DNA from: Dictyostelium discoideum
Taxonomy: Eukaryota
Length of the DNA: 64,000 nt
Direction: 5' to 3'
Assembly: GCA_000004695.1 (NCBI GenBank)
Contig: CM000154.2
Location: 1,824,001-1,888,000, forward strand
Translations under genes and position numbers: made by a program
Shown: piece by piece, positions 2,054 to 34,774 of the stretch
How the letters are laid out: each line of letters opens with the position of its first letter
Numbering within the stretch: the stretch's first letter is position 1
The notes under the pieces: model-generated
What the model was told of the DNA's origin: nothing
Database searches by the model: none
What the model saw: the letters and a program-made list of their open reading frames with translations, nothing else

Positions 2054-3133
2054 TCAATCAAAATCTCTTAAATTGTCGATTGAAATTTTTAGTAAACTTT
2101 TATCTTTTGATTTAAAGTAAACACCTTTAGAATTGGTTGAACCAATAAGACAAGGCTCTGGATCGTAATAGTCTTGTAATTTTTTAATTAAATAAGTTTG
2201 AATTTGTGGTTGTTGTTGTTGTTGTTGTTGTTGATGTTGGTGATGTTGATGTAATTGTTGTTTAATAATGATTTTATGATAGTTTTCAGGAGGGTTTGGA
2301 TCGATTGTTAAAGTGATTTCCGAAGAATTTGAATTGGTAGTTGTAATAAATGTTGGAAATATTGCTACTATACTATCATCATTTGAATCCTTTTTAAAGA
2401 TTACAGAATTGGTTGAAATAGATCTTGAGTTTTGAATATTTAAATTTGAACAAATGGACTTATTAATTTGTTTGGAAATTTCTTTCTCCAATTGAATCTC
2501 TTCATTTAATTTTGTTACTAAATTCTTTAATTTTAAATTTTGTTCCTTTTCCATCTTTAATTGAAATTCCAATTGTTCCATACTAAGTTTTAATTTTTTA
2601 TTTTCATTTGCTGTTGCATTTATTAAATTTTGAAGTTGTTGACTTTGATTTGAAAAATTTGATTGATTATTTGGTTTATTTGGTTTATTTTGATTTTGAT
2701 CTTGATCTTGTAAAAAATTAAATATATTATTATTATTATTATTATTATTATTTATATTATTATTATTATTTTTATTTATATTATTATTATTATTATTTCT
2801 ATTTGGAGATACCATTTCTATTTGTGGGGTTGGTGGTACTATGTAACCTTCATTTAGAGATGTTAAACTATTTAATTTTACTTTTTTAAATGATCTTGTA
2901 TCTTGTACTTCACGTATATCTGTAGTTTCTTCGACAATACTAAAGTCATCATAAGAATCGCTATCTTCTTTATTAGTAATACTATCTTCGTCATTTTCTT
3001 CTTCTTCTTCTTCTTCTTGTTCTTCATCGCCACCATTTAAACTTGTATTACTACTACTACCATTGGTAACATTTGTATTTGTATTATTATTTGAACTTAT
3101 GGCATTATTTGCATTTTGTCTTCTTGTCATCAT
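2054..3133 (-). CDS. Asn-rich acidic protein with a central coiled coil (359 aa), function unknown
   Basis: Single ORF starting ATGATGACA at 3133, stop TGA at 2051-2053. An E-rich acidic block ([14 protein letters not shown]), poly-N tracts and an LKLSMEQLEFQLKMEKEQNLKLKNL coiled-coil segment. No recognisable catalytic domain. Confidence 0.4.
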   Translation of the reverse strand: MMTRRQNANNAISSNNNTNTNVTNGSSSNTSLNGGDEEQEEEEEEENDEDSITNKEDSDSYDDFSIVEETTDIREVQDTRSFKKVKLNSLTSLNEGYIVPPTPQIEMVSPNRNNNNNNINKNNNNNINNNNNNNNNIFNFLQDQDQNQNKPNKPNNQSNFSNQSQQLQNLINATANENKKLKLSMEQLEFQLKMEKEQNLKLKNLVTKLNEEIQLEKEISKQINKSICSNLNIQNSRSISTNSVIFKKDSNDDSIVAIFPTFITTTNSNSSEITLTIDPNPPENYHKIIIKQQLHQHHQHQQQQQQQQPQIQTYLIKKLQDYYDPEPCLIGSTNSKGVYFKSKDKSLLKISIDNLRDFD

Positions 3134-3250
3134 TGATCCATTTGATGTCTGTCAATTGTGTGTATATATATATAATAATAATAATAATAAATAAAAAATA
3201 TTAATTAATTAATTTATGAATTAATTAATGAATGATTAATTTAATATGGT

Positions 3251-3595
3251 TTACCAATAAATTTTAAATAAAGTCAAAGTAAAGATTTTTACAGTTGGAG
3301 TTTGTGGAGGTGAAGAATCAATTTGTTGTGATGTTTTTTGAAGTGCTAAGTTCTTCATTGATAAAGAATGCTTTTGGTTCTTAATCTTTGATTTAATTTG
3401 TTCCAATGTATAAACGCCTTTAAATGGTGTTGTGCCTGACAAGATTTCAACGATTTCCATATCTTTTGTGTAAAGTTTAGTCGCCAACATCGTCTGATAT
3501 TGACTAAATAACTTGGCTGCAACATCTTCAGGCCATAAAACTTTCTTATTAGTTACAAACCTTATATTAATACCTCTATTATTTGGTGTATCCAT
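3251..3595 (-). CDS. Small hypothetical protein (114 aa)
   Basis: ATG-initiated ORF with a non-low-complexity N-terminal 75 aa (RFVTNKKVLWPEDVAAKLFSQYQTMLATKLYTKDMEIVEILSGTTPFKGVYTLEQIK). No flanking exons found. Confidence 0.35.
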   Translation of the reverse strand: MDTPNNRGINIRFVTNKKVLWPEDVAAKLFSQYQTMLATKLYTKDMEIVEILSGTTPFKGVYTLEQIKSKIKNQKHSLSMKNLALQKTSQQIDSSPPQTPTVKIFTLTLFKIYW

Positions 3596-3956
3596 TTTTC
3601 TTTCTCGACTTGTTTCTTAATATATTTTTTTTTTTTTTATTTTTTTAAAAAAAAGAAAAAAATTGAATCTAATCTTTATTTTTTGAGTTAACCTCTAAAT
3701 GGCGCAGATTTTATATTATTTTTTTGTTTTTTTTTTTTTGTATTTTTAAAATAAGTTTTTGAAAAAAAAAAAATAAAAAAAATAAAAATAAAAATAAAAA
3801 AATAAAAATAAAAAAATAAAAAAAAAAAATATAAAAAAATATAAATATGAAAATAAAGTAAGTAATGTGTTATTAATAAATGGGAATTTTATTATTATAT
3901 TTGAATTATTGTTATTATATGATCTTTATAATCTATCCAAAAAATTATTTGTTTTT

Positions 3957-25252: not shown

Positions 25253-28183
<2,931 letters not shown>

Positions 28184-28290: not shown

Positions 28291-28459
28291 TTTTATTTTA
28301 TTTTTAATTTATTTCTGTTAGGTTAATTTATAATAGTTATTTAATTATTTACTTGATTTTTGGTTTTTTTTTTTTCTTTTCTTTTTTTTTTTTTTTTTTT
28401 TTTTTTTGAATATCCCAATTTTTTTTTTTGAATATCCCAATTTTTTTTTTTTTTTTTAC

Positions 28460-29519
28460 TCAATTAAATGTTTTTAATATATTTTGATAAGAATTAACAG
28501 TATAATTTTGTTCATCCATTTTTTCCCACCTGTGTACACAATCTCTTAACCAAGCGAAATGAACAACTTTAATATTTGGATTTTTTAAAGCTTGTTGTGC
28601 TTTTGAAGTTCCTTCTTTAATGAAAATTAAATGAGTAGTTGTTGAATCAATTTCCAAAGAGATTTTAGCACCAAAAGATTCAGTAATTTTTGAAACTCTT
28701 GTATGGCACAATTTTGATGGATCAATTTGTTTTGGAAATATACCACTAAATACAATATTACAATCCATCAAAACTGAACTTCTAATTTCATCAATAATCG
28801 ATTTAACATGAATTGTATTAATATCACCTCTAGATAAGAATTCTCCTTGAATTGCCGGTAACAATCCTGAAAACATATCCAAGTATGGTGTATTTGTAAA
28901 AATATTTGTTGTGATATTGGTGTTGGTGTTGGTGTTGGTGTTGGTGTTGTTTGATGAAGATGGTGATAAAAAAGACGATGATGATGATAATGATAATGAT
29001 GATGATGATGATGATGATGATGGTGATTGTTGCTGTACATTTGATAATATTAATTGATTATTATTAAAATTATTATTATTTATAGGTTCTGAAATATTTG
29101 GAAATGGATAAGCTTTTGATAATTCTTGAAATGAGAATGGATATTGATAAATTGGTGTAAAATCTTGAATTTCATTATTTCCATAATTTCTACCACTAGT
29201 ATTACTACTATTTGTATTAAAGAATTTAAAAGTATCAAGTAATATTAAATTATCTTGAAAATTTCTCCAAACATCCTCTCTATCATCCAATATTATCATT
29301 TGATTAATTGCTTCGAAATTAAATATTTTACTAAAATTTTGATTATTAAATACAATATATGGTTTACCAATTGAATTTATTGGTGGTAATGGTTCAACTG
29401 GTTCTATAACTTCTTTTGTTATTACTTTTGTAAAAATTGATCTATTTGGATCTAAAATTAATGCTAATTGTTCAACATCTTATAAAAAAATAAAATTAAA
29501 TTAATTATTAATTATTGAT

Positions 29520-29562
<43 letters not shown>

Positions 29563-29924
29563 TCTTACAATATTTTGGATGAAAAGAATATAAATAAATT
29601 TTAAATTGAGAAGAAAGGGATGAAAGGAATTCTATTGCATTTGGTCTTTGTTTAACATAAAATGTTTCATTTGTTTCAGTGATTGTAAATTTGTTAATTG
29701 AATTATCTTTTAAGTAATAACTTTCAGCATTTGGATCTTTGGTTGAATGTAATAATGTATGATCAATATCAACTATTAAATACATTTTTGGTGAGCCATT
29801 ACTTGATTTTGATTCAAAATTTGGATTAATCCATGATCCATCTTTTGTTAGTAAACTTTTAATTTTCATTTCTACATTTTGACTTAATCCAACTAATTCA
29901 CTAAATTTGGATTTTGGTGGTTGC

Positions 29925-29982
<58 letters not shown>

Positions 29983-31507
29983 GGTTATTTACATTATTAT
30001 TATTATTATTATTGTTATTATTATTATTAACACCATTATTATTAATAATATTATTATTTGAAGATGGTGATAATAAATTATTTTTAGAATTGGTTGAAAT
30101 TGGTGATGGTTGTTGTAGTTGATTTTGATTTAATGAAGGTGAACCATTTGAAAGTGGTTGTTTTGGAGAAGTCATACCTGGTGTACTATTGTTACTGTTT
30201 CCACTATTTTGTTTAGTTGAAGAAGAGGAAGAGGTAGAAGAATATTTCTTTTTATCTCTATCACTTGATCTGTCTCTTTTTGAAGATTTACTACTCTTTG
30301 AATATCTTGATCTTGAAGATGATCTTGAAGATGATCTTTTTCTATAGGAACTTCTTCTACTTGATCTTGATCTACTACGAGAGGAATCTGAATAACTTGA
30401 ACTTCTTGATCTTTTCGATCTTGAATATCTTCCACTATATCTATCTCTTGATCTTGATCTACTATAATCGTCACTTGATGAATCATTTCTACTTTTACTT
30501 CTACTTTTACTTCTACTTCTACTTCTACTTCTACTTCTACTTCTACTTCTACTTGAACTGTAACTCCTTCTTGAATATCTTTTTGATCTACTACTTCTAC
30601 TACTACTATATCTGCTACTGCTACTATATTTTTTACTACTACTACTACTTTTATAAGACGAACGATGACTTCTACTATGACTTCTACTTCTTGAAGAATT
30701 TGAGCGACTTCTTGAACGAGATGATGACGATGGTGATGGAGATGATGATGATGAAGATGATCCTCTTCTTCTGTGATTTCTACTTCTACTTCTTCTTCTT
30801 CTTCTGCTGCTATATCTATTACCATATCTATCTCTTGATCTTGAACGACTTGAGCTATAACCTCTTCTTCTTCTTGATCTTGATCTCGATCTTGAACTAT
30901 CATCACTATAACCTCTACTTCTTTTCTTTTCTTTGAATTTTTTATAATCTCTTAATGATTCCTCAAAATCCAAATCCTCCTTTTTATTATTCTCTGAAAA
31001 TGCCAAAGGCATATATAATCTATCACCAACAATTGATGGATACGCTATACTTTCAGGTCTATTATAAGTTACAATACCATTACCACTACTTCTCAATACA
31101 ACATTGGCAACCGTTGTTCCATTACCAGTTACAATCATTGGTTCATTATCTACAACATGATAATCAATAACTTCACCACTACCAACATTGGCAACTACAA
31201 TGCCACCCACTTCATTATTTGGATCCATATAATAATATTGTGTTGGCTCAACTATTGATTCCACTTCTTTACCATTTATTATTATTGTTGTTGTTGATTT
31301 TGAAGTTATGGAGGTTGATAATTCTTTATTTTCTGTACATGTTAAATCTTGATTTTTTTGATCTTTTAATTTTTCTTGATTTTTGGTGGTATCTGTGGTT
31401 GAATCTTGACTTTTTCCCACTTCAACTAATTTTTCATCTTCAACAATTTCCCCATCACTAATTTCTTCACCATTTTCTTTGGAGATTTTATTTTCCTTTG
31501 ATTTCAT
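28460..31507 (-). CDS. fcp1: FCP1-type RNA polymerase II CTD phosphatase (FCPH + BRCT) with an N-terminal RS domain. Exons 31507-29569 and 29478-28460 (about 985 aa).
   Basis: DxDxT catalytic motif in MYLIVDIDHTLLHS. KIYLYSFHPKY + T before a GTAAGA donor and ttataag acceptor gives YVEQLALILDP...IILDDREDVWRN (FCP homology). C-terminal BRCT (HLIFIKEGTSKAQQALKNPNIKVVHFAWLRDC). Upstream in the same ORF: RSRSRS / SRSKS Arg-Ser repeats, poly-Q and poly-N. Confidence 0.75.
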
Positions 31508-31793
31508 AATATTTAATTATTATTTTTTTTTTTTTTAAAAAAAAAAAAAATAAAAAATAATAATAGTGTAAAAGTGAAATTATTGGGTATTGGTTATTTT
31601 ACAATAATAGTTTTTTTTTTTTTATTTTTTTTTTATTTTTTTTTTTATTTTTTTTTTTCAGTCAGATAAAAGTCGTTTAAATTTTTTTGAATTTTAATTT
31701 TTTTTTCTTTTTTTTCTCGCAAACCGTTGTTTCATTTTTGCGTTTTTTCCAATCTTTTTTTATTAATTGAAAAAAAAATTTTTTTAGATTTTG

Positions 31794-31829
<36 letters not shown>

Positions 31830-32021
31830 AATTTAGAATAAAATTTTTATTCACAGATTTGGAAAAAGTGAAAAAACAAATTAAGAATAAATTTTTTTTT
31901 TTTTTATTTAAATCAATAAAACAATAAAGAATGAAATTTTTTTTTTTATTTAAATTGATTTCCAAAAATAAAATTATACAACAAAACTAACCAATTTTAA
32001 AAAATAATTTTTTATTTTATT

Positions 32022-34774
32022 TTAAACAAACAAAATAATTAAAATTAAAAATAAAACAAGAGAAAATAATTGGCAAAATTTAAAATTATTAGAGTGATTA
32101 TTTTCATCATTTTCGGAATGATTATTATTATTGGTATTGGTTTTATTATTACCATTTGGAATTGGAGTTGTTGATTTTGGATTTACAGAGGGAGATGGAG
32201 ATTTAGAAATAAATGGAGACAAAGATGGAGATAAAGATGGAGATAAAGATGGTGATAAAGATGGAGATAAAGATGGTGATAAAGATGCAGACAAAGATGG
32301 TGATGGAGAAATTGTTTCAAACGGTGTTTCAGTTTCTGGTGGACTCCATTCAAAAATTGTATCACCAACAGATTGGCCATTTATAGTTACGTTTATGAAT
32401 GACTTTGGTTTATCACTTGTAATGGTATCATTTGTTACAATTAATGGTTCTAAAAAACATTCAAGTTTATTAGAATCGAAAACAACTATATCACCACAGT
32501 TTCTAGAATCAATTGTAATACTGTTTAATTCATTCTCTGCAAAATTGGTTCCAGTTATTGTAACATTACCACCTTTAATTTGGTCAACTTTTGTAGTGGA
32601 TAAAATAGTTGGTGGATTGTATGAAAGGGTTAATGGAGATGGGAGTTGTACATCGTCTACAATTAATATAACTAGATTATTTTTTCCACTACCTTTTGGT
32701 GCCATACATTCTAATGTTGTTGGACTGGATATAGAAACAGAGTCACATGACTTTTCACCAACCATTATAGTAATTGTTGATTTACTATCAAAGAAAGAAC
32801 CAACAATTGAAACACTACCGCCATCTGTATTTATAGAAGAGATTGATTTGCAAATTGGAAGAATTGAAATTTTGAAACCATTAGAATCACTAGATAAACC
32901 ATCAACAACAATAATGGCATTGTTATCAAATTTAGCTGTTTCTGGAAGTGTGAATGATGCTACACCATTTTCAAGTGAATCTGCTTTAATAGCGCCATTG
33001 TTTAAAGTTAATTCCACAAGTGATGCATCAGAACCAAGGTTTCTACCCTTAATCTCTAAAATATTTTCTTTTTGGGTTGGTTCAAGTTCAAATGGTGGTT
33101 GATAACTAAAAGCAATTCTATATGGTTTATGAGTACCAAAAGTTACAACGGCAACCATTTTATTACCAGTACCAGAAGAAAGAGTACATGAAAGTTTTGA
33201 AACATCAATAATTACATCTGTACATTCAATTGGATTGGTTTTACCTGTATTTTCAATTTGAATACTTGGTTTAACACCTGATGGATTCAAATAAAATCCA
33301 GATATTTCAAATGGTCCACCTTCCGTTGGGGCAAGTGTTAATGGTTCAGTTAAAACTGGAGTTGTGGTAAAATCAAGTTTATTTGAAATATCTTTATTAT
33401 TAGAAACAACAAAACTGCCACTGAAAATTTTTGAAGGTAGGGTAAATACCAAAACATTCTGAGCATTATCATCATCAGTTGGACTAATGGTGTTTTCTTG
33501 ATTTTTTTGATCAGTGATAATAATTTTTGAAGTACCCATCGTACCAAGACTTGTTCCTTCAATTGTAAAGTTAGTACCAGTTTGCTTAATATTTAAAATT
33601 TTTGGAATACCATAGGAATATTCTAAAACATTGGAATTGGAAATATTATCAATATTAATTGAAACCTTCAATTTTTTTATTCCACCTTTTGCAGTAGAGT
33701 GTGGTAATTTACAAATAATTTCACTTGAAATTTGGCTAATAATATCACAATGATAAGATCCAATGGTAATAGAGGTTTTTGATGTATCACCTGATGCACC
33801 CTTTAAGCATTTACCAGTTATTGTTACAACACCACCAATCACTGGAACGGAATTTATTGATAAAGGTAAAGGAGTAAACTTTAGTTGAGAAAGAGATGAA
33901 GATAAACCATTCACATCAACTTTAACAGATAAGGATTGGGTTAATTTTGGTTCATAATTAAATACAATTAAATCATTATTAACTGATACAATTGATGAAG
34001 CTGTTAATACTTGACTTCCCAACTCAATCTTTATTAATCTTTTATCAGTGTAAAAATTAGAACCACTTATTTTAAATTGACCATTTGATGATGATTCAAT
34101 TTTATGGATAGACGGGGCAGCAAAATTTAATTTGAAGGTTGAAGTTCCCAATTGAACACTGAATGAACCAGATCCACCCAAGTTTTTAACATTAAATTTA
34201 GTTGCATCTTTTGGAATTGGTGGATCTAAATTTAATTTTTTGGTTTTACCACCAATAATTACATTTAAAGTTTTTACATCATACCCAAATCTCAAAAAAT
34301 TACCAGTTACCAATGATAACCCAGGTTCAGTTGATGGTGTAAATTTCAAATCTCTTGGCGGAGGTATTGGCAAACCAATCATTGGATGCTCAGTTGTTTT
34401 ATCTTTTCCATCCATATATTTCCCATTGAATGTAAGAGTTGAACCAATTAATTTTGTAAAATCTAAATCTTTTGATTTACAAATACAACCATCTTTACCC
34501 TTTCTAGTACATGTAAACAATATTTTTACAGTTGGACAACTCTTATCTGTCAATATAATATTTGTTAAGAATTTATCAACTTTACTTCCAACATATACTA
34601 ATTTCTTTCCTTCAACAGAAACATTAACTAATAATTTTGAAAAAAAAAAAAAAAAAAATAAATAAATAATTAAATTTACAATAATACTTTAAAATTTAAT
34701 TTACAACAATAACTTACATCCAGCCTTAATTAAATTAAAAAAAGATATAATTACCAATAAATATAGTATTTTCA
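32022..34774 (-). CDS. IPT/TIG-repeat cell-surface glycoprotein, Tgr-like, paralogue A. Main exon 34627-32022; the signal-peptide exon at 34774-34718 appears frameshifted.
   Basis: Multiple IPT/TIG-like modules (ISGSNFYTDKRLIKIELGSQVL, ISIVGSFFDSKSTITIMVGEKSCDSV, ITGTNF...). S/P stalk (SPSLSPSLSPSLS 12-nt repeats) and a C-terminal hydrophobic tail (FCQLFSLVLFLILIILFV, GPI/TM-like). Upstream, ATG AAA ATA CTA...GCT GGA T + GTAAGT would encode the signal peptide MKILYLLVIISFFNLIKAG, but a T6 run (versus the T7 needed) puts a TAA stop in frame. Confidence 0.7.

What the first reader, a model, noticed from the sequence alone, without database searches (positions are those of the whole stretch)
28460..31507. 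FCP1-type CTD phosphatase carrying a roughly 580-aa N-terminal extension with an Arg/Ser (RS) domain
The FCPH catalytic core (DIDHTLLHS) and the BRCT domain are preceded, in one continuous 1.9-kb stop-free frame, by an acidic N-terminus, a roughly 200-aa RS/SR-dipeptide region typical of splicing factors, and poly-Q/poly-N tracts. Combining an SR-protein-like domain with the RNA polymerase II CTD phosphatase would physically link CTD dephosphorylation to the splicing machinery. The 1.9-kb frame is too long to be open by chance in 78% AT DNA, so the extension is almost certainly coding.
Basis: partly seen in the sequence, partly recalled or inferred. Interest (0 to 1): 0.5.

Follow-up and report, generated by a model that had tools for sequence, protein, structure and literature searches.

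The report
RS-domain FCP1-like phosphatase paralogue
This Dictyostelium gene encodes a second, divergent copy of the RNA polymerase II tail phosphatase FCP1 that carries a conserved arginine/serine-rich domain of the kind found in splicing factors, a combination I found in no paper but whose function is untested.

Summary
On the minus strand, a two-exon gene (31507..29569 and 29478..28460, with a 90-nt intron) encodes a 985-aa protein. It has an acidic N-terminus, a conserved 60-aa motif, a 245-aa RS domain (81 RS/SR dipeptides), a poly-N/poly-Q linker, an FCPH phosphatase domain (DIDHT) and a BRCT domain.

The extension is coding. D. citrinum and D. purpureum have the same unbroken frame and the same intron position. 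Against D. citrinum, dN/dS in the RS domain is 0.08, as low as in the catalytic domain (0.07).

The interpretation needs one major correction: this is not the cell's FCP1. D. purpureum carries both this protein and a separate canonical FCP1 with the Cys/His N-domain, YTMGTR and an acidic C-terminal tail; four other dictyostelids also have a canonical FCP1. The RS-bearing protein lacks those accessory elements and scores below the FCP1 family cutoff. It has Gln where the catalytic motif III Lys should be. In an NJ tree it forms a separate clade with an environmental relative that has a basic, non-RS linker.

Among the 150 best-scoring FCP1-family representatives, only these Dictyostelium proteins have an RS domain. 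The link to splicing is plausible, by analogy with CDK12/13, but untested. I rate it a new variant of a known kind, of moderate interest.

The parts
28460..31507 (-). Whole coding region of the 985-aa RS-domain FCP1-like phosphatase (two exons, one intron).
   Evidence: ORF list and splice reconstruction. The same structure is found in D. citrinum and D. purpureum.
29569..31507 (-). Exon 1 (1939 nt): the start ATG through the first half of the FCPH domain.
   Evidence: Donor CCAAAATATT|GTAAG. The N-terminus MKSKENKISK is identical in D. citrinum. GC is 19-39% throughout, with no stretch of intergenic-like composition.
29479..29568 (-). Intron of 90 nt (GTAAG...TATAAG), about 90% A+T.
   Evidence: Removing it restores the FCPH frame, giving ...HPKY|YVEQLALILDP. 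The intron is at the same codon in D. citrinum (73 nt) and D. purpureum.
28460..29478 (-). Exon 2: the second half of FCPH, a low-complexity insert, BRCT, and the stop codon at 28460-28462.
   Evidence: The exhaustive search with this exon's translation found FCP1-family proteins.
31328..31507 (-). Acidic N-terminus (aa 1-60) containing the conserved SDGEIVED motif.
   Evidence: 16 D+E against 10 K+R. SDGEIV is conserved in D. citrinum and D. purpureum. A similar EEGEIV occurs in the environmental relative L003; that resemblance was seen by eye and is not statistically supported.
30923..31102 (-). Conserved 60-aa N-terminal motif (aa 136-195): VVLRSSGNGIVTYNRPESIAYPSIVGDRLYMPLAFSENNKKEDLDFEESLRDYKKFKEKK.
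   Evidence: It is 80% identical to D. purpureum, as conserved as BRCT. It is present in P0002 and partly in P0003. It has no Pfam match. AlphaFold2 predicts it disordered in the D. purpureum orthologue.
30188..30922 (-). RS domain (aa 196-440, 245 aa).
   Evidence: 81 RS/SR dipeptides, S 46.5%, R 27.3%. dN/dS is 0.08 against D. citrinum. It is 71% identical to D. purpureum over aligned columns. Ser codons are mixed and only one microsatellite is present. Predicted disordered.
30487..30554 (-). Hexanucleotide microsatellite inside the RS domain, about 11 copies, encoding (RS)n/(KS)n.
   Evidence: Tandem Repeats Finder. D. citrinum has an 8-codon in-frame deletion at this spot.
29873..30187 (-). 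Ser/Asn/Gln-rich variable linker (aa 441-545), with poly-N (29993-30028) and poly-Q (29921-29983).
   Evidence: It is the least constrained segment: dN/dS 0.45, a 15-codon indel against D. citrinum, and it is almost absent from the D. purpureum gene model.
29216..29791 (-). FCPH (NIF) phosphatase domain, aa 573-734, interrupted by the intron.
   Evidence: Pfam NIF E 1.2e-17. TIGR02250 FCP1_euk scores 76.4 bits, below the 135.25 cutoff. pLDDT is above 90 in the orthologue model. dN/dS is 0.07.
29756..29770 (-). DxDxT catalytic motif DIDHT (aa 580-584).
   Evidence: It aligns with S. pombe Fcp1 D170-L-D172-Q-T174.
29339..29341 (-). Gln693, in the alignment column of the catalytic motif III lysine (S. 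pombe Fcp1 Lys280).
   Evidence: HMMER alignment to 3ef0 and MAFFT alignments. That column is K in at least 90% of sequences and Q in the window, D. citrinum and D. purpureum proteins. A conserved Lys lies four residues downstream.
28823..29212 (-). Low-complexity insert between FCPH and BRCT (aa 736-865). It includes the conserved stretch QDFTPIYQYPFSFQELSKAYPFPNI.
   Evidence: dN/dS is 0.23. The SFQELxKxxPFP motif is shared with the environmental relative P0005/L003.
28499..28822 (-). BRCT domain (aa 866-973). The protein ends 12 residues later, so there is no acidic C-terminal tail.
   Evidence: Pfam BRCT E 1.6e-10. It aligns to the S. pombe Fcp1 BRCT at E 1.5e-12. dN/dS is 0.01.
31508..32021 (-). 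Upstream intergenic region, the presumed promoter, lying between the stop of the TIG-domain gene and the start ATG.
   Evidence: GC is 9-16%, with long A and T runs. That it is a promoter is inferred only.

Best explanation
The gene encodes a 985-aa nuclear phosphatase of the FCP1 type (a DxDxT FCPH domain plus BRCT). It is a divergent paralogue of the housekeeping FCP1, not FCP1 itself.

In place of FCP1's Cys/His N-domain and its TFIIF-binding acidic tail, it has three things: an acidic N-terminus, a strongly conserved 60-aa motif that is probably a docking motif, and a 245-aa RS domain.

**Shown**
- The gene structure.
- The FCP1-like fold of the core (modelled on the D. purpureum orthologue).
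- That the RS domain is translated, conserved across Dictyostelium species and under purifying selection.
- That a separate canonical FCP1 exists in dictyostelids.
- That this architecture is restricted to Dictyostelium among the 150 best-scoring FCP1 relatives examined.

**Inferred**
- The RS domain, which SRPK/CLK-type kinases probably phosphorylate, most likely drives nuclear import and partitioning into RS-rich splicing-factor assemblies.
- This would bring the BRCT/FCPH module to RNA polymerase II engaged in co-transcriptional splicing. There the module would remove phosphoserine from the CTD heptads, or from another Ser-Pro or RS substrate.
- On this reading it is the phosphatase counterpart of the RS-domain CTD kinases CDK12/13. 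Recruitment would go through RS contacts and the N-terminal motif rather than through TFIIF.
- The RS domain seems to have evolved from a basic disordered linker, because a more distant relative has a K/R-rich, non-RS linker in the same place.
For: - **Gene model.** ORF and splice reconstruction.
- **Core domains.** Pfam NIF 1.2e-17 and BRCT 1.6e-10. S. pombe Fcp1 is the best solved relative by sequence and by fold (E 2e-24, about 397 aligned columns, against about 1e-9 for SCP and CTDNEP1). FCPH and BRCT have pLDDT above 90 in the orthologue model.
- **Orthologues with the same architecture.** D. citrinum KAN0021657.1 (947 aa) and D. purpureum DICPUDRAFT_87022. The D. citrinum locus is syntenic.
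- **Selection against D. citrinum.** dN/dS is 0.08 in the RS domain (42 synonymous against 16 non-synonymous changes), 0.07 in FCPH and 0.01 in BRCT. It is 0.45 in the poly-N/Q linker. All indels are in frame.
- **RS domain is not a recent slippage product.** There is one 68-nt microsatellite in 735 nt, and Ser codons are mixed.
- **Paralogy.** Canonical FCP1 is present in D. purpureum (DICPUDRAFT_55168), P. violaceum, T. lacteum and C. fasciculata. The D. purpureum protein has CTHEIQFSGLCATC, DLDHT, YTMGTR and an acidic tail. In an NJ tree, the window protein with its D. citrinum and D. purpureum orthologues and the L003 relative forms a clade with 100% bootstrap, outside the canonical clade.
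- **RS domain is unique among relatives.** These proteins have 44-49 RS/SR dipeptides per 100 aa. The other 147 proteins among the 150 best hits have at most 6.
- **Relative without an RS domain.** L003 has a basic non-RS linker.
- **Precedent.** CDK12/13 combine an RS domain with a CTD kinase, localise to speckles and are viewed as coupling CTD phosphorylation to splicing (PMC3348076). D. discoideum has SR proteins (PMC3173450).
Against: - No expression, localisation or activity data were available.
- The motif III lysine (Fcp1 Lys280) contacts the phosphate and the Asp nucleophile (PMC4436666). In all three Dictyostelium proteins that position is Gln. Motif II YTMGTR has become YSFHPK, and the FCP1 family model scores below its cutoff. 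Catalytic competence and substrate are therefore uncertain.
- An RS domain can serve only as a nuclear localisation signal or condensate driver, with no specific link to splicing.
- The conserved N-terminal motif has no identified partner and is predicted disordered.
- The tree is a simple NJ tree with long branches.
- The presence of canonical FCP1 in the window's own species is inferred from relatives, not shown.
Confidence: 0.55

Rival explanations
1. Pseudophosphatase or phospho-CTD reader. The FCPH domain has lost efficient catalysis and the protein acts as an RS-domain scaffold. It would bind phosphorylated CTD or other phosphoproteins through its BRCT domain and a substrate-trapping active site.
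For: - Gln replaces the nearly invariant motif III Lys (Fcp1 Lys280) in the window, D. citrinum and D. purpureum proteins, whereas the L003 relative keeps Lys.
- Motif II YTMGTR has become YSFHPK, and the Arg271 position is Lys.
- TIGR02250 scores 76 bits, below the 135 cutoff.
- Lys280 contacts the phosphate oxygens and Asp170 in Fcp1 structures (PMC4436666).
Against: - Both Asp of DxDxT, Thr584, the Arg223 equivalent, a Ser at motif II (an acceptable S/T) and the motif IV pair DD followed by R are all retained.
- The domain is under strong constraint (dN/dS 0.07).
- A conserved Lys lies four residues downstream of the Gln and could substitute for the missing one.
- Known dead members of this fold, such as TIM50, have lost the DxDxT motif (my own knowledge, not tested here).
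Confidence: 0.2
2. The RS region is only a nuclear-targeting or solubility element, or a tolerated low-complexity expansion typical of Dictyostelium proteins, with no specific connection to the splicing machinery.
For: - Dictyostelium proteins are rich in simple-sequence tracts. This gene also has poly-N, poly-Q and poly-S, and both neighbouring genes carry similar tracts.
- Part of the RS DNA is a hexanucleotide microsatellite that varies in length between species.
- RS domains in general act as nuclear import signals (established knowledge).
Against: - dN/dS is 0.08 in the RS domain against 0.45 in the neighbouring poly-N/Q linker.
- The RS domain is kept at 71% identity in D. purpureum, while the linker is almost entirely replaced.
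- Codon usage for Ser is mixed, so most of the domain is not a recent slippage product.
- A plain nuclear localisation signal would not need 245 residues.
Confidence: 0.2
3. One reading: this is the organism's canonical FCP1 (the essential, TFIIF-associated CTD phosphatase), which has simply gained an N-terminal extension.
For: It has the FCPH+BRCT architecture, and Fcp1 is the best match by sequence and by fold.
Against: - A separate canonical FCP1 co-exists with the RS-type protein in D. purpureum and is present in four other dictyostelids.
- The RS-type protein lacks the C-x-H...C-x-x-C N-domain motif that is essential in S. pombe (PMC4436666).
- It has no acidic C-terminal tail.
- It falls outside the canonical clade and scores below the FCP1_euk cutoff.
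Confidence: 0.03
4. There are two products: an independent RS protein and a shorter phosphatase that starts at an internal ATG (Met547) or from an internal promoter.
For: An in-frame ATG exists 33 codons upstream of DIDHT and is conserved in D. citrinum. No transcript data were available.
Against: - The frame is unbroken in three species, with no stop codon between the RS region and FCPH.
- Met547 is not conserved in D. purpureum.
- No stretch with intergenic composition lies inside exon 1. GC stays at 19% or above there, against 9-16% in the flanks.
- Gene models in D. citrinum and D. purpureum join both parts.
Confidence: 0.05

Closest known systems
Canonical FCP1/CTDP1 (for example S. pombe Fcp1, PDB 3EF0/3EF1/4XPZ; D. 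purpureum DICPUDRAFT_55168)
   Same: - An FCPH DxDxT phosphatase domain followed by a single BRCT domain.
- Best match by sequence and by fold.
- The Asp nucleophile, the Asp acid/base, the motif II hydroxyl residue and the motif IV DD are all present.
   Different: - It is a paralogue, not the orthologue.
- It has no lipoyl-like N-domain with the C-x-H...C-x-x-C motif.
- It has no acidic C-terminal tail, which in FCP1 binds RAP74.
- Motif III Lys is Gln, YTMGTR is YSFHPK, and DLDQT/DLDHT is DIDHT.
- It has gained a 60-aa conserved motif and a 245-aa RS domain.
Lineage-specific FCP1-like paralogues with BRCT: Arabidopsis CPL3/CPL4 and the two BRCT-bearing NIF proteins of Plasmodium falciparum
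   Same: - They show that extra FCPH+BRCT genes alongside, or instead of, a single FCP1 occur in other lineages (PMC8774115; PMC2559854).
- CPL3 has been linked to alternative splicing through CTD Ser2 dephosphorylation (PMC11927175).
   Different: - Plant-like sequences cluster apart from the Dictyostelium RS clade in the NJ tree.
- None of the 150 best-scoring relatives outside Dictyostelium has an RS domain.
- I did not test whether CPL3 or the Plasmodium proteins share the N-terminal motif.
CDK12/CDK13 (CrkRS, CDC2L5): CTD kinases with RS domains
   Same: They combine an RS domain with an enzyme acting on the Pol II CTD. They localise to speckles and are proposed to couple CTD phosphorylation state to splicing (PMC3348076). 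This is the closest functional analogy.
   Different: The enzymatic direction is opposite (kinase against phosphatase) and the catalytic fold is unrelated, so there is no homology. CDK12/13 are widely conserved, whereas this protein was seen only in Dictyostelium.
SR-related proteins, including the SR-like CTD-associated factors (SCAF4/SCAF8)
   Same: A long RS domain that passes the usual composition criterion (at least 50 aa and more than 40% RS; here 245 aa and 44%). SCAFs join an RS domain to a CTD-binding module (my own knowledge).
   Different: It has no RRM and no CID domain (Pfam). It therefore is not an SR protein in the strict sense. Its CTD-directed module is catalytic (FCPH) plus BRCT.

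Membership tests
FCP1-type CTD phosphatases (FCPH+BRCT architecture, broad sense) | An FCPH/NIF HAD-type domain with a DxDxT motif. | tested here: met
   Pfam PF03031 E 1.2e-17, above the gathering score. DIDHT is at aa 580-584.
FCP1-type CTD phosphatases (FCPH+BRCT architecture, broad sense) | A BRCT domain C-terminal to FCPH. | tested here: met
   Pfam PF00533 E 1.6e-10. It aligns to the SpFcp1 BRCT at E 1.5e-12.
FCP1-type CTD phosphatases (FCPH+BRCT architecture, broad sense) | An overall fold like the solved Fcp1 structure. | tested here: met
   The AlphaFold2 model of the D. purpureum orthologue has pLDDT above 90 in the core. Its top Foldseek PDB hits are 3ef1, 4xpz and 3ef0, with E 2e-24 and TM 0.61-0.65 normalised by target length. 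The test used the orthologue, not the window protein itself.
Canonical FCP1/CTDP1 orthologue group | One-to-one orthology with FCP1, meaning it is the organism's FCP1 and reaches the family-model cutoff. | tested here: not met
   A separate canonical FCP1 exists in D. purpureum and four other dictyostelids. TIGR02250 scores 76.4 bits, below 135.25. The NJ tree gives a separate clade with 100% bootstrap.
Canonical FCP1/CTDP1 orthologue group | An N-terminal domain with the C-x-H...C-x-x-C putative metal-binding motif (essential in S. pombe). | tested here: not met
   There is no such motif in aa 1-572 (read directly from the sequence). The motif is present in 37 canonical sequences and in P0156. 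hhalign of the N-terminal regions gives E 0.22. Its essential role is reported in PMC4436666.
Canonical FCP1/CTDP1 orthologue group | An acidic C-terminal region that binds RAP74 (TFIIF). | tested here: not met
   The protein ends 12 residues after BRCT. The canonical D. purpureum FCP1 has an acidic tail of about 200 aa. The feature is described in PMC8774115. Binding itself cannot be tested with these tools.
Canonical FCP1/CTDP1 orthologue group | The full set of catalytic residues (SpFcp1 D170, D172, T243, K280, D297, D298). | tested here: inconclusive
   D580, D582, S641 (in place of T243), D711 and D712 are present. The K280 column holds Q693, with a Lys four residues downstream. Residue roles are taken from PMC4436666.
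Canonical FCP1/CTDP1 orthologue group | Phosphatase activity on Pol II CTD Ser2P/Ser5P. | not testable with these tools
   This needs a biochemical assay.
SR proteins / SR-related proteins | An RS domain of at least 50 aa with more than 40% RS content and consecutive RS/SR repeats. | tested here: met
   245 aa, with 44% of residues in RS/SR dipeptides and a longest alternating run of 15 residues. The criterion itself is quoted from memory (Manley and Krainer nomenclature).
SR proteins / SR-related proteins | One or two N-terminal RRMs (required for an SR protein in the strict sense). | tested here: not met
   No RRM in the Pfam scan at E up to 1. The protein can therefore be called SR-related at most.
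SR proteins / SR-related proteins | A role in splicing, or localisation to speckles. | not testable with these tools
   This needs localisation and splicing assays.

The most novel reading that the evidence does not exclude
Dictyostelium has a dedicated RS-domain-targeted CTD phosphatase, the enzymatic opposite of CDK12/13. It would be recruited to transcribing, splicing polymerase through RS-RS contacts and a lineage-specific docking motif rather than through TFIIF. It would erase CTD marks, or marks on Spt5 or SR proteins, at intron-containing genes. This would be the first case in which the 'eraser' of the CTD code is wired directly to the splicing machinery.
Probability: 0.3. Interest if true: 0.6.

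Novelty: new variant of a known kind. Interest (0 to 1): 0.42.

Why it matters
Coupling between the Pol II CTD code and splicing is known mainly from the 'writer' side (CDK12/13, which carry RS domains) and the 'reader' side (the SCAFs). No 'eraser' with an RS domain turned up in the literature I could search.

If this phosphatase is active and is targeted by its RS domain, it offers a natural test of whether local CTD dephosphorylation at splicing sites matters. Dictyostelium suits that test: it is genetically tractable and haploid, and a canonical FCP1 is probably still present to cover the essential function. That presence is shown in D. purpureum and inferred for the window's species.

The gene also shows how an RS domain can arise from a basic disordered linker. 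Finally, it shows that domain-level 'FCP1' labels in protist genomes can hide distinct paralogues.

Tried and rejected
- **Exact look-up.** The 985-aa protein is not in the collection, so I could not recover the public annotation of this gene model.
- **Word-indexed search with the N-terminal 203 aa.** It returned nothing. This is a false negative of the candidate step: local phmmer with the same database size gives P0001 E 3e-24 and P0002 E 3e-18. Whether the N-terminal motif exists outside dictyostelids therefore remains untested.
- **Homology of the N-terminal motif to the lipoyl-like N-domain of canonical FCP1.** hhalign chose the alignment I had seen by eye (LRSSGNGIVT against LKSTLAGIVH), but with E 0.22 and probability 0.3%. 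Rejected as unsupported.
- **Pfam on three N-terminal regions.** Only chance-level hits below threshold.
- **Test that P0002's E/V-rich middle part is the shifted frame of an RS-coding region.** BLASTP against the window's alternative-frame ORF was not significant. What remains is the codon argument (GAA GTN read one base earlier gives AGA AGT), which is an inference.
- **N-terminal resemblances in the L003 relative (EEGEIV, EEDFEFLLKSY).** Not significant by phmmer. I treat them as anecdotal.
- **Literature searches.** They found no paper on this gene or on an RS-domain CTD phosphatase. The two phosphatome papers that include Dictyostelium gave no gene-level information.
- **tRNA scan of the window.** No genes found.


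Full report
**1. What is in the sequence**

The window is 77.5% A+T and has Dictyostelium-type low-complexity coding. On the minus strand an ATG at 31507 opens a frame of 661 codons. Reading the DNA shows a donor (CCAAAATATT|GTAAG) at 29569/29568 and an acceptor (TATAAG|AT) at 29479/29478.

Removing this 90-nt intron, which is about 90% A+T, joins ...SFHPKY to YVEQLALILDP... The result is a 2958-nt CDS that ends at the stop codon at 28460-28462. The product is 985 aa.

GC stays at 19-39% across exon 1. It falls to 9-16% only in the flanks and in the intron.

**2. Domains**

- Pfam finds NIF/FCPH at aa 577-734 (E 1.2e-17) and BRCT at aa 882-961 (E 1.6e-10). Nothing else passes threshold.
- The best solved relative by sequence is S. 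pombe Fcp1 (E 3e-25), with separate matches to FCPH and BRCT.
- An AlphaFold2 model of the D. purpureum orthologue has pLDDT above 90 in FCPH and BRCT. Its best PDB fold matches are the three Fcp1 entries (E about 2e-24, about 397 aligned columns). These are far ahead of SCP, CTDNEP1 and TIM50 (1e-9 and weaker).
- Upstream of the core lie four segments:
  - an acidic N-terminus (aa 1-60, with SDGEIVED);
  - a 60-aa motif (aa 136-195);
  - an RS domain (aa 196-440);
  - a Ser/Asn/Gln linker with poly-N (494-505) and poly-Q (509-529).
- The RS domain is 245 aa, 46.5% Ser and 27.3% Arg. It holds 81 of the protein's 85 RS/SR dipeptides, and 44% of its residues lie in such dipeptides.

**3. Is the extension coding and part of the same protein?**

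Repetitive DNA there is also open in two other frames. Comparative evidence is decisive.

- *D. citrinum.* The exhaustive search with the exon 2 translation found D. citrinum KAN0021657.1 (947 aa, 94% identical over exon 2). Its locus is syntenic, with a TIG-domain gene upstream, and it has an intron at the same codon.
- *D. purpureum.* DICPUDRAFT_87022 has the same unbroken frame from the ATG through the RS region into DIDHT, and the same intron position.
- *Selection against D. citrinum.*

| Segment | dN/dS |
|---|---|
| N-terminus (aa 1-195) | 0.29 |
| RS domain | 0.08 (42 synonymous, 16 non-synonymous changes) |
| Poly-N/Q linker | 0.45 |
| FCPH | 0.07 |
| Insert between FCPH and BRCT | 0.23 |
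| BRCT | 0.01 |

- *Indels.* All are in frame.
- *Identity to D. purpureum.* The 60-aa motif is 80% identical, the RS domain 71%, FCPH 67% and BRCT 82%. The linker is essentially not conserved.
- *Origin of the RS DNA.* It contains one 68-nt hexanucleotide microsatellite, and Ser codons are mixed (TCA 39, AGT 49, TCT 14). Most of the domain is therefore not a recent slippage product.
- *Alternative start.* Met547 is not conserved in D. purpureum.

I conclude that the RS domain is translated, selected and part of the phosphatase polypeptide.

**4. It is not the canonical FCP1**

One of the representative hits (P0019, EukProt) looked like a canonical FCP1 with Dictyostelium-type low complexity. 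Using it as a query returned canonical FCP1 proteins from D. purpureum (DICPUDRAFT_55168, 730 aa), Polysphondylium violaceum, Tieghemostelium lacteum and Cavenderia fasciculata.

The D. purpureum protein has all the canonical features:
- the lipoyl-like N-domain with CTHEIQFSGLCATC;
- DLDHT and YTMGTRNYA;
- a BRCT domain;
- a long acidic tail ending DFLEAELDKLVE;
- only 2 RS/SR dipeptides.

D. purpureum therefore has both genes, and the window gene is the orthologue of the non-canonical one.

The RS-type protein differs from canonical FCP1 in several ways:
- It lacks the Cys/His motif that is essential in S. pombe (PMC4436666).
- It ends 12 residues after BRCT.
- It scores 76 bits on TIGR02250 FCP1_euk, against a cutoff of 135.
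- In an NJ tree of 293 conserved columns it forms a clade with 100% bootstrap, together with an environmental relative. That clade lies outside the one holding dictyostelid, fungal and animal FCP1. This is a simple distance tree with long branches, so the depth of the split is uncertain.

**5. Relatives and the origin of the RS domain**

Among the 150 best of 1166 FCP1-family representatives, only the window protein and its D. citrinum and D. purpureum orthologues are RS-rich. They have 44-49 RS/SR dipeptides per 100 aa, and every other hit has 6 or fewer.

A fourth dictyostelid model (P0002) has the N-terminal motif and the BRCT domain. Its middle part of about 225 aa is E/V/A-rich. That is what RS-coding DNA gives when read one base out of frame (GAA GTN against AGA AGT). 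This is an inference, and a BLASTP check was not significant.

A more distant relative sits on Logan contigs from SRR30000137/8 (L003, L004). After manual splicing it reads DIDHTLVHST, YTMGTRAYA, a Lys at motif III, LDDRDDVW, the SIQELIKTHPFP motif and a closely matching BRCT. Between its acidic N-terminus and FCPH lies a K/R-rich linker of about 150 aa that is not RS.

This suggests the paralogue is older than the RS domain, and that the RS domain evolved from a basic disordered linker within the Dictyostelium lineage.

**6. Catalytic residues**

Positions were mapped through the HMMER alignment to 3ef0 and two MAFFT alignments.

| S. pombe Fcp1 residue | Window protein |
|---|---|
| Asp170 | D580 |
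| Asp172 | D582 |
| Thr174 | T584 |
| Arg223 | R621 |
| Thr243 | S641 |
| Arg271 | K668 |
| Lys280 | Q693 |
| Asp297, Asp298, Arg299 | D711, D712, R713 |

Lys280 contacts the phosphate oxygens and the Asp nucleophile in Fcp1 structures (PMC4436666). Gln occupies this column in all three Dictyostelium RS-type proteins, while the L003 relative keeps Lys. A conserved Lys (K697) lies four residues downstream, at the start of the predicted helix.

Together with YTMGTR becoming YSFHPK, this leaves catalytic competence open. Retention of every acidic catalytic residue and a dN/dS of 0.07 argue for a working active site. The missing Lys argues for altered or weak catalysis.

**7. The N-terminal motif**

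- It has no Pfam match.
- It shows no significant profile similarity to the canonical FCP1 N-domain (E 0.22).
- AlphaFold2 predicts it disordered, though the alignment was shallow there.
- The indexed database search with it was a false negative, so its distribution outside dictyostelids is unknown.

Given 80% identity over 60 residues and predicted disorder, I read it as a docking motif that folds on a partner. That is an inference.

**8. Mechanism**

*Shown:* the architecture, its conservation, the selection on it, the paralogy, and the Dictyostelium-only RS domain.

*Inferred:*
- The RS domain, probably phosphorylated by SRPK/CLK-type kinases, directs nuclear import and association with RS-rich splicing assemblies.
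- BRCT and FCPH then act on phospho-CTD or another phosphoprotein at sites of co-transcriptional splicing.
- Recruitment goes through the RS domain and the N-terminal motif, instead of through TFIIF and the Cys/His N-domain.

The nearest functional precedent is CDK12/13, which are CTD kinases with RS domains that localise to speckles (PMC3348076). Plant CPL3, an FCP1 homologue, has been tied to alternative splicing (PMC11927175). D. discoideum has SR proteins (PMC3173450).

The rivals are a pseudophosphatase scaffold, an RS region that is only a nuclear signal or tolerated low complexity, separate products from an internal start, and the canonical-FCP1 reading. The last is essentially excluded.

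**9. Novelty and verdict**

Orthologues are annotated only as 'hypothetical protein' or generic Ser/Thr phosphatase. Five literature searches found no description of this gene or of any RS-domain CTD phosphatase.

Extra FCP1-like paralogues are known elsewhere, in Arabidopsis (CPL3/4) and in Plasmodium (BRCT-bearing NIF proteins). RS domains on CTD-directed proteins are also known. This is therefore a new variant of a known kind, not a new kind.

Interest is moderate. The domain combination is real, conserved and testable in a tractable organism. It is, however, lineage-restricted, its activity is uncertain, and its function is inferred only from composition.

Noticed in passing
window 25253-28183 (+): A 976-aa ORF rich in poly-Q and poly-N. 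By eye it contains a bZIP-like basic region followed by heptad leucines ([41 protein letters not shown]). Pfam gave no hit at E 1e-3. Its 3' end converges on the phosphatase gene, 276 bp away. A 915-aa gene sits in the same position and orientation in D. citrinum.
   Followed up: partly
window 32022-34553 (-): An 843-aa IPT/TIG-domain protein (Pfam TIG, E 1.8e-30, three repeats) with a C-terminal (SPSL)n tract and a hydrophobic tail. It lies directly upstream of the phosphatase gene on the same strand. The arrangement is syntenic in D. citrinum.
   Followed up: partly
window 30172-30906 (-) and 30265-30936 (+): The RS-coding DNA is also open in two other frames, giving a 244-aa E/V/D/Q-rich ORF and a 223-aa F/Y/L-rich ORF. 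ORF length alone is therefore not evidence of coding in such repeats. These frames can also mislead gene predictors.
   Followed up: yes
P0002 (EukProt gene7934-9760_t), residues about 155-380: This dictyostelid gene model has the conserved N-terminal motif and the BRCT domain, but its middle part is E/V/A/I-rich. That looks like an RS-coding region read one base out of frame, which would be a frameshift in the assembly or the model. The model also lacks the DxDxT part of FCPH. BLASTP could not confirm this.
   Followed up: partly
L001 6001-7758 (D. purpureum locus): The NCBI model DICPUDRAFT_87022 removes two segments as introns (about 18 aa, SNNMDPHASGYVEHGMVA, and about 65 aa before the FCPH domain). 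Both lie inside one continuous open frame. They may be wrongly called introns, in which case the true protein would be longer than 793 aa.
   Followed up: no
L003 / L004 (Logan SRR30000138 / SRR30000137), about 2136-3889: An environmental eukaryote with moderate GC carries a relative of the RS-type paralogue without an RS domain. It was called as two separate genes (247 aa and 237 aa). Manual splicing (two introns) gives one FCPH+BRCT protein with DIDHT and YTMGTRAYA. The organism was not identified.
   Followed up: partly
window 30188-30922 (RS domain), and the orthologues: Tyrosines in the RS domain are almost always followed by Ser: 13 of 16 in the window protein, 12 of 12 in D. purpureum and 12 of 15 in D. 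citrinum. This gives recurrent R/S-Y-S-S units. Whether these mimic the Y1-S2 of the CTD heptad or are kinase sites is unknown.
   Followed up: no
window 28400-28451: A perfect 22-bp direct repeat (AAATTGGGATATTCAAAAAAAA on the gene strand, 2.4 copies) lies just downstream of the stop codon, in the 3' UTR or intergenic region.
   Followed up: no
P0156 (D. purpureum canonical FCP1), C-terminus: The canonical dictyostelid FCP1 ends in DIADFLEAELDKLVE. From memory, this resembles the C-terminal RAP74-binding helix of human FCP1 (…KALEAELNDLM). It suggests that TFIIF binding is kept in the canonical copy and is absent from the RS-type copy.
   Followed up: no
The word-indexed protein search returned no hit for the N-terminal 203 aa. 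Yet orthologues already in the same collection score E 3e-24 and 3e-18 with phmmer at the same database size. A negative result from that tool on short or compositionally biased queries should not be read as absence.
   Followed up: yes
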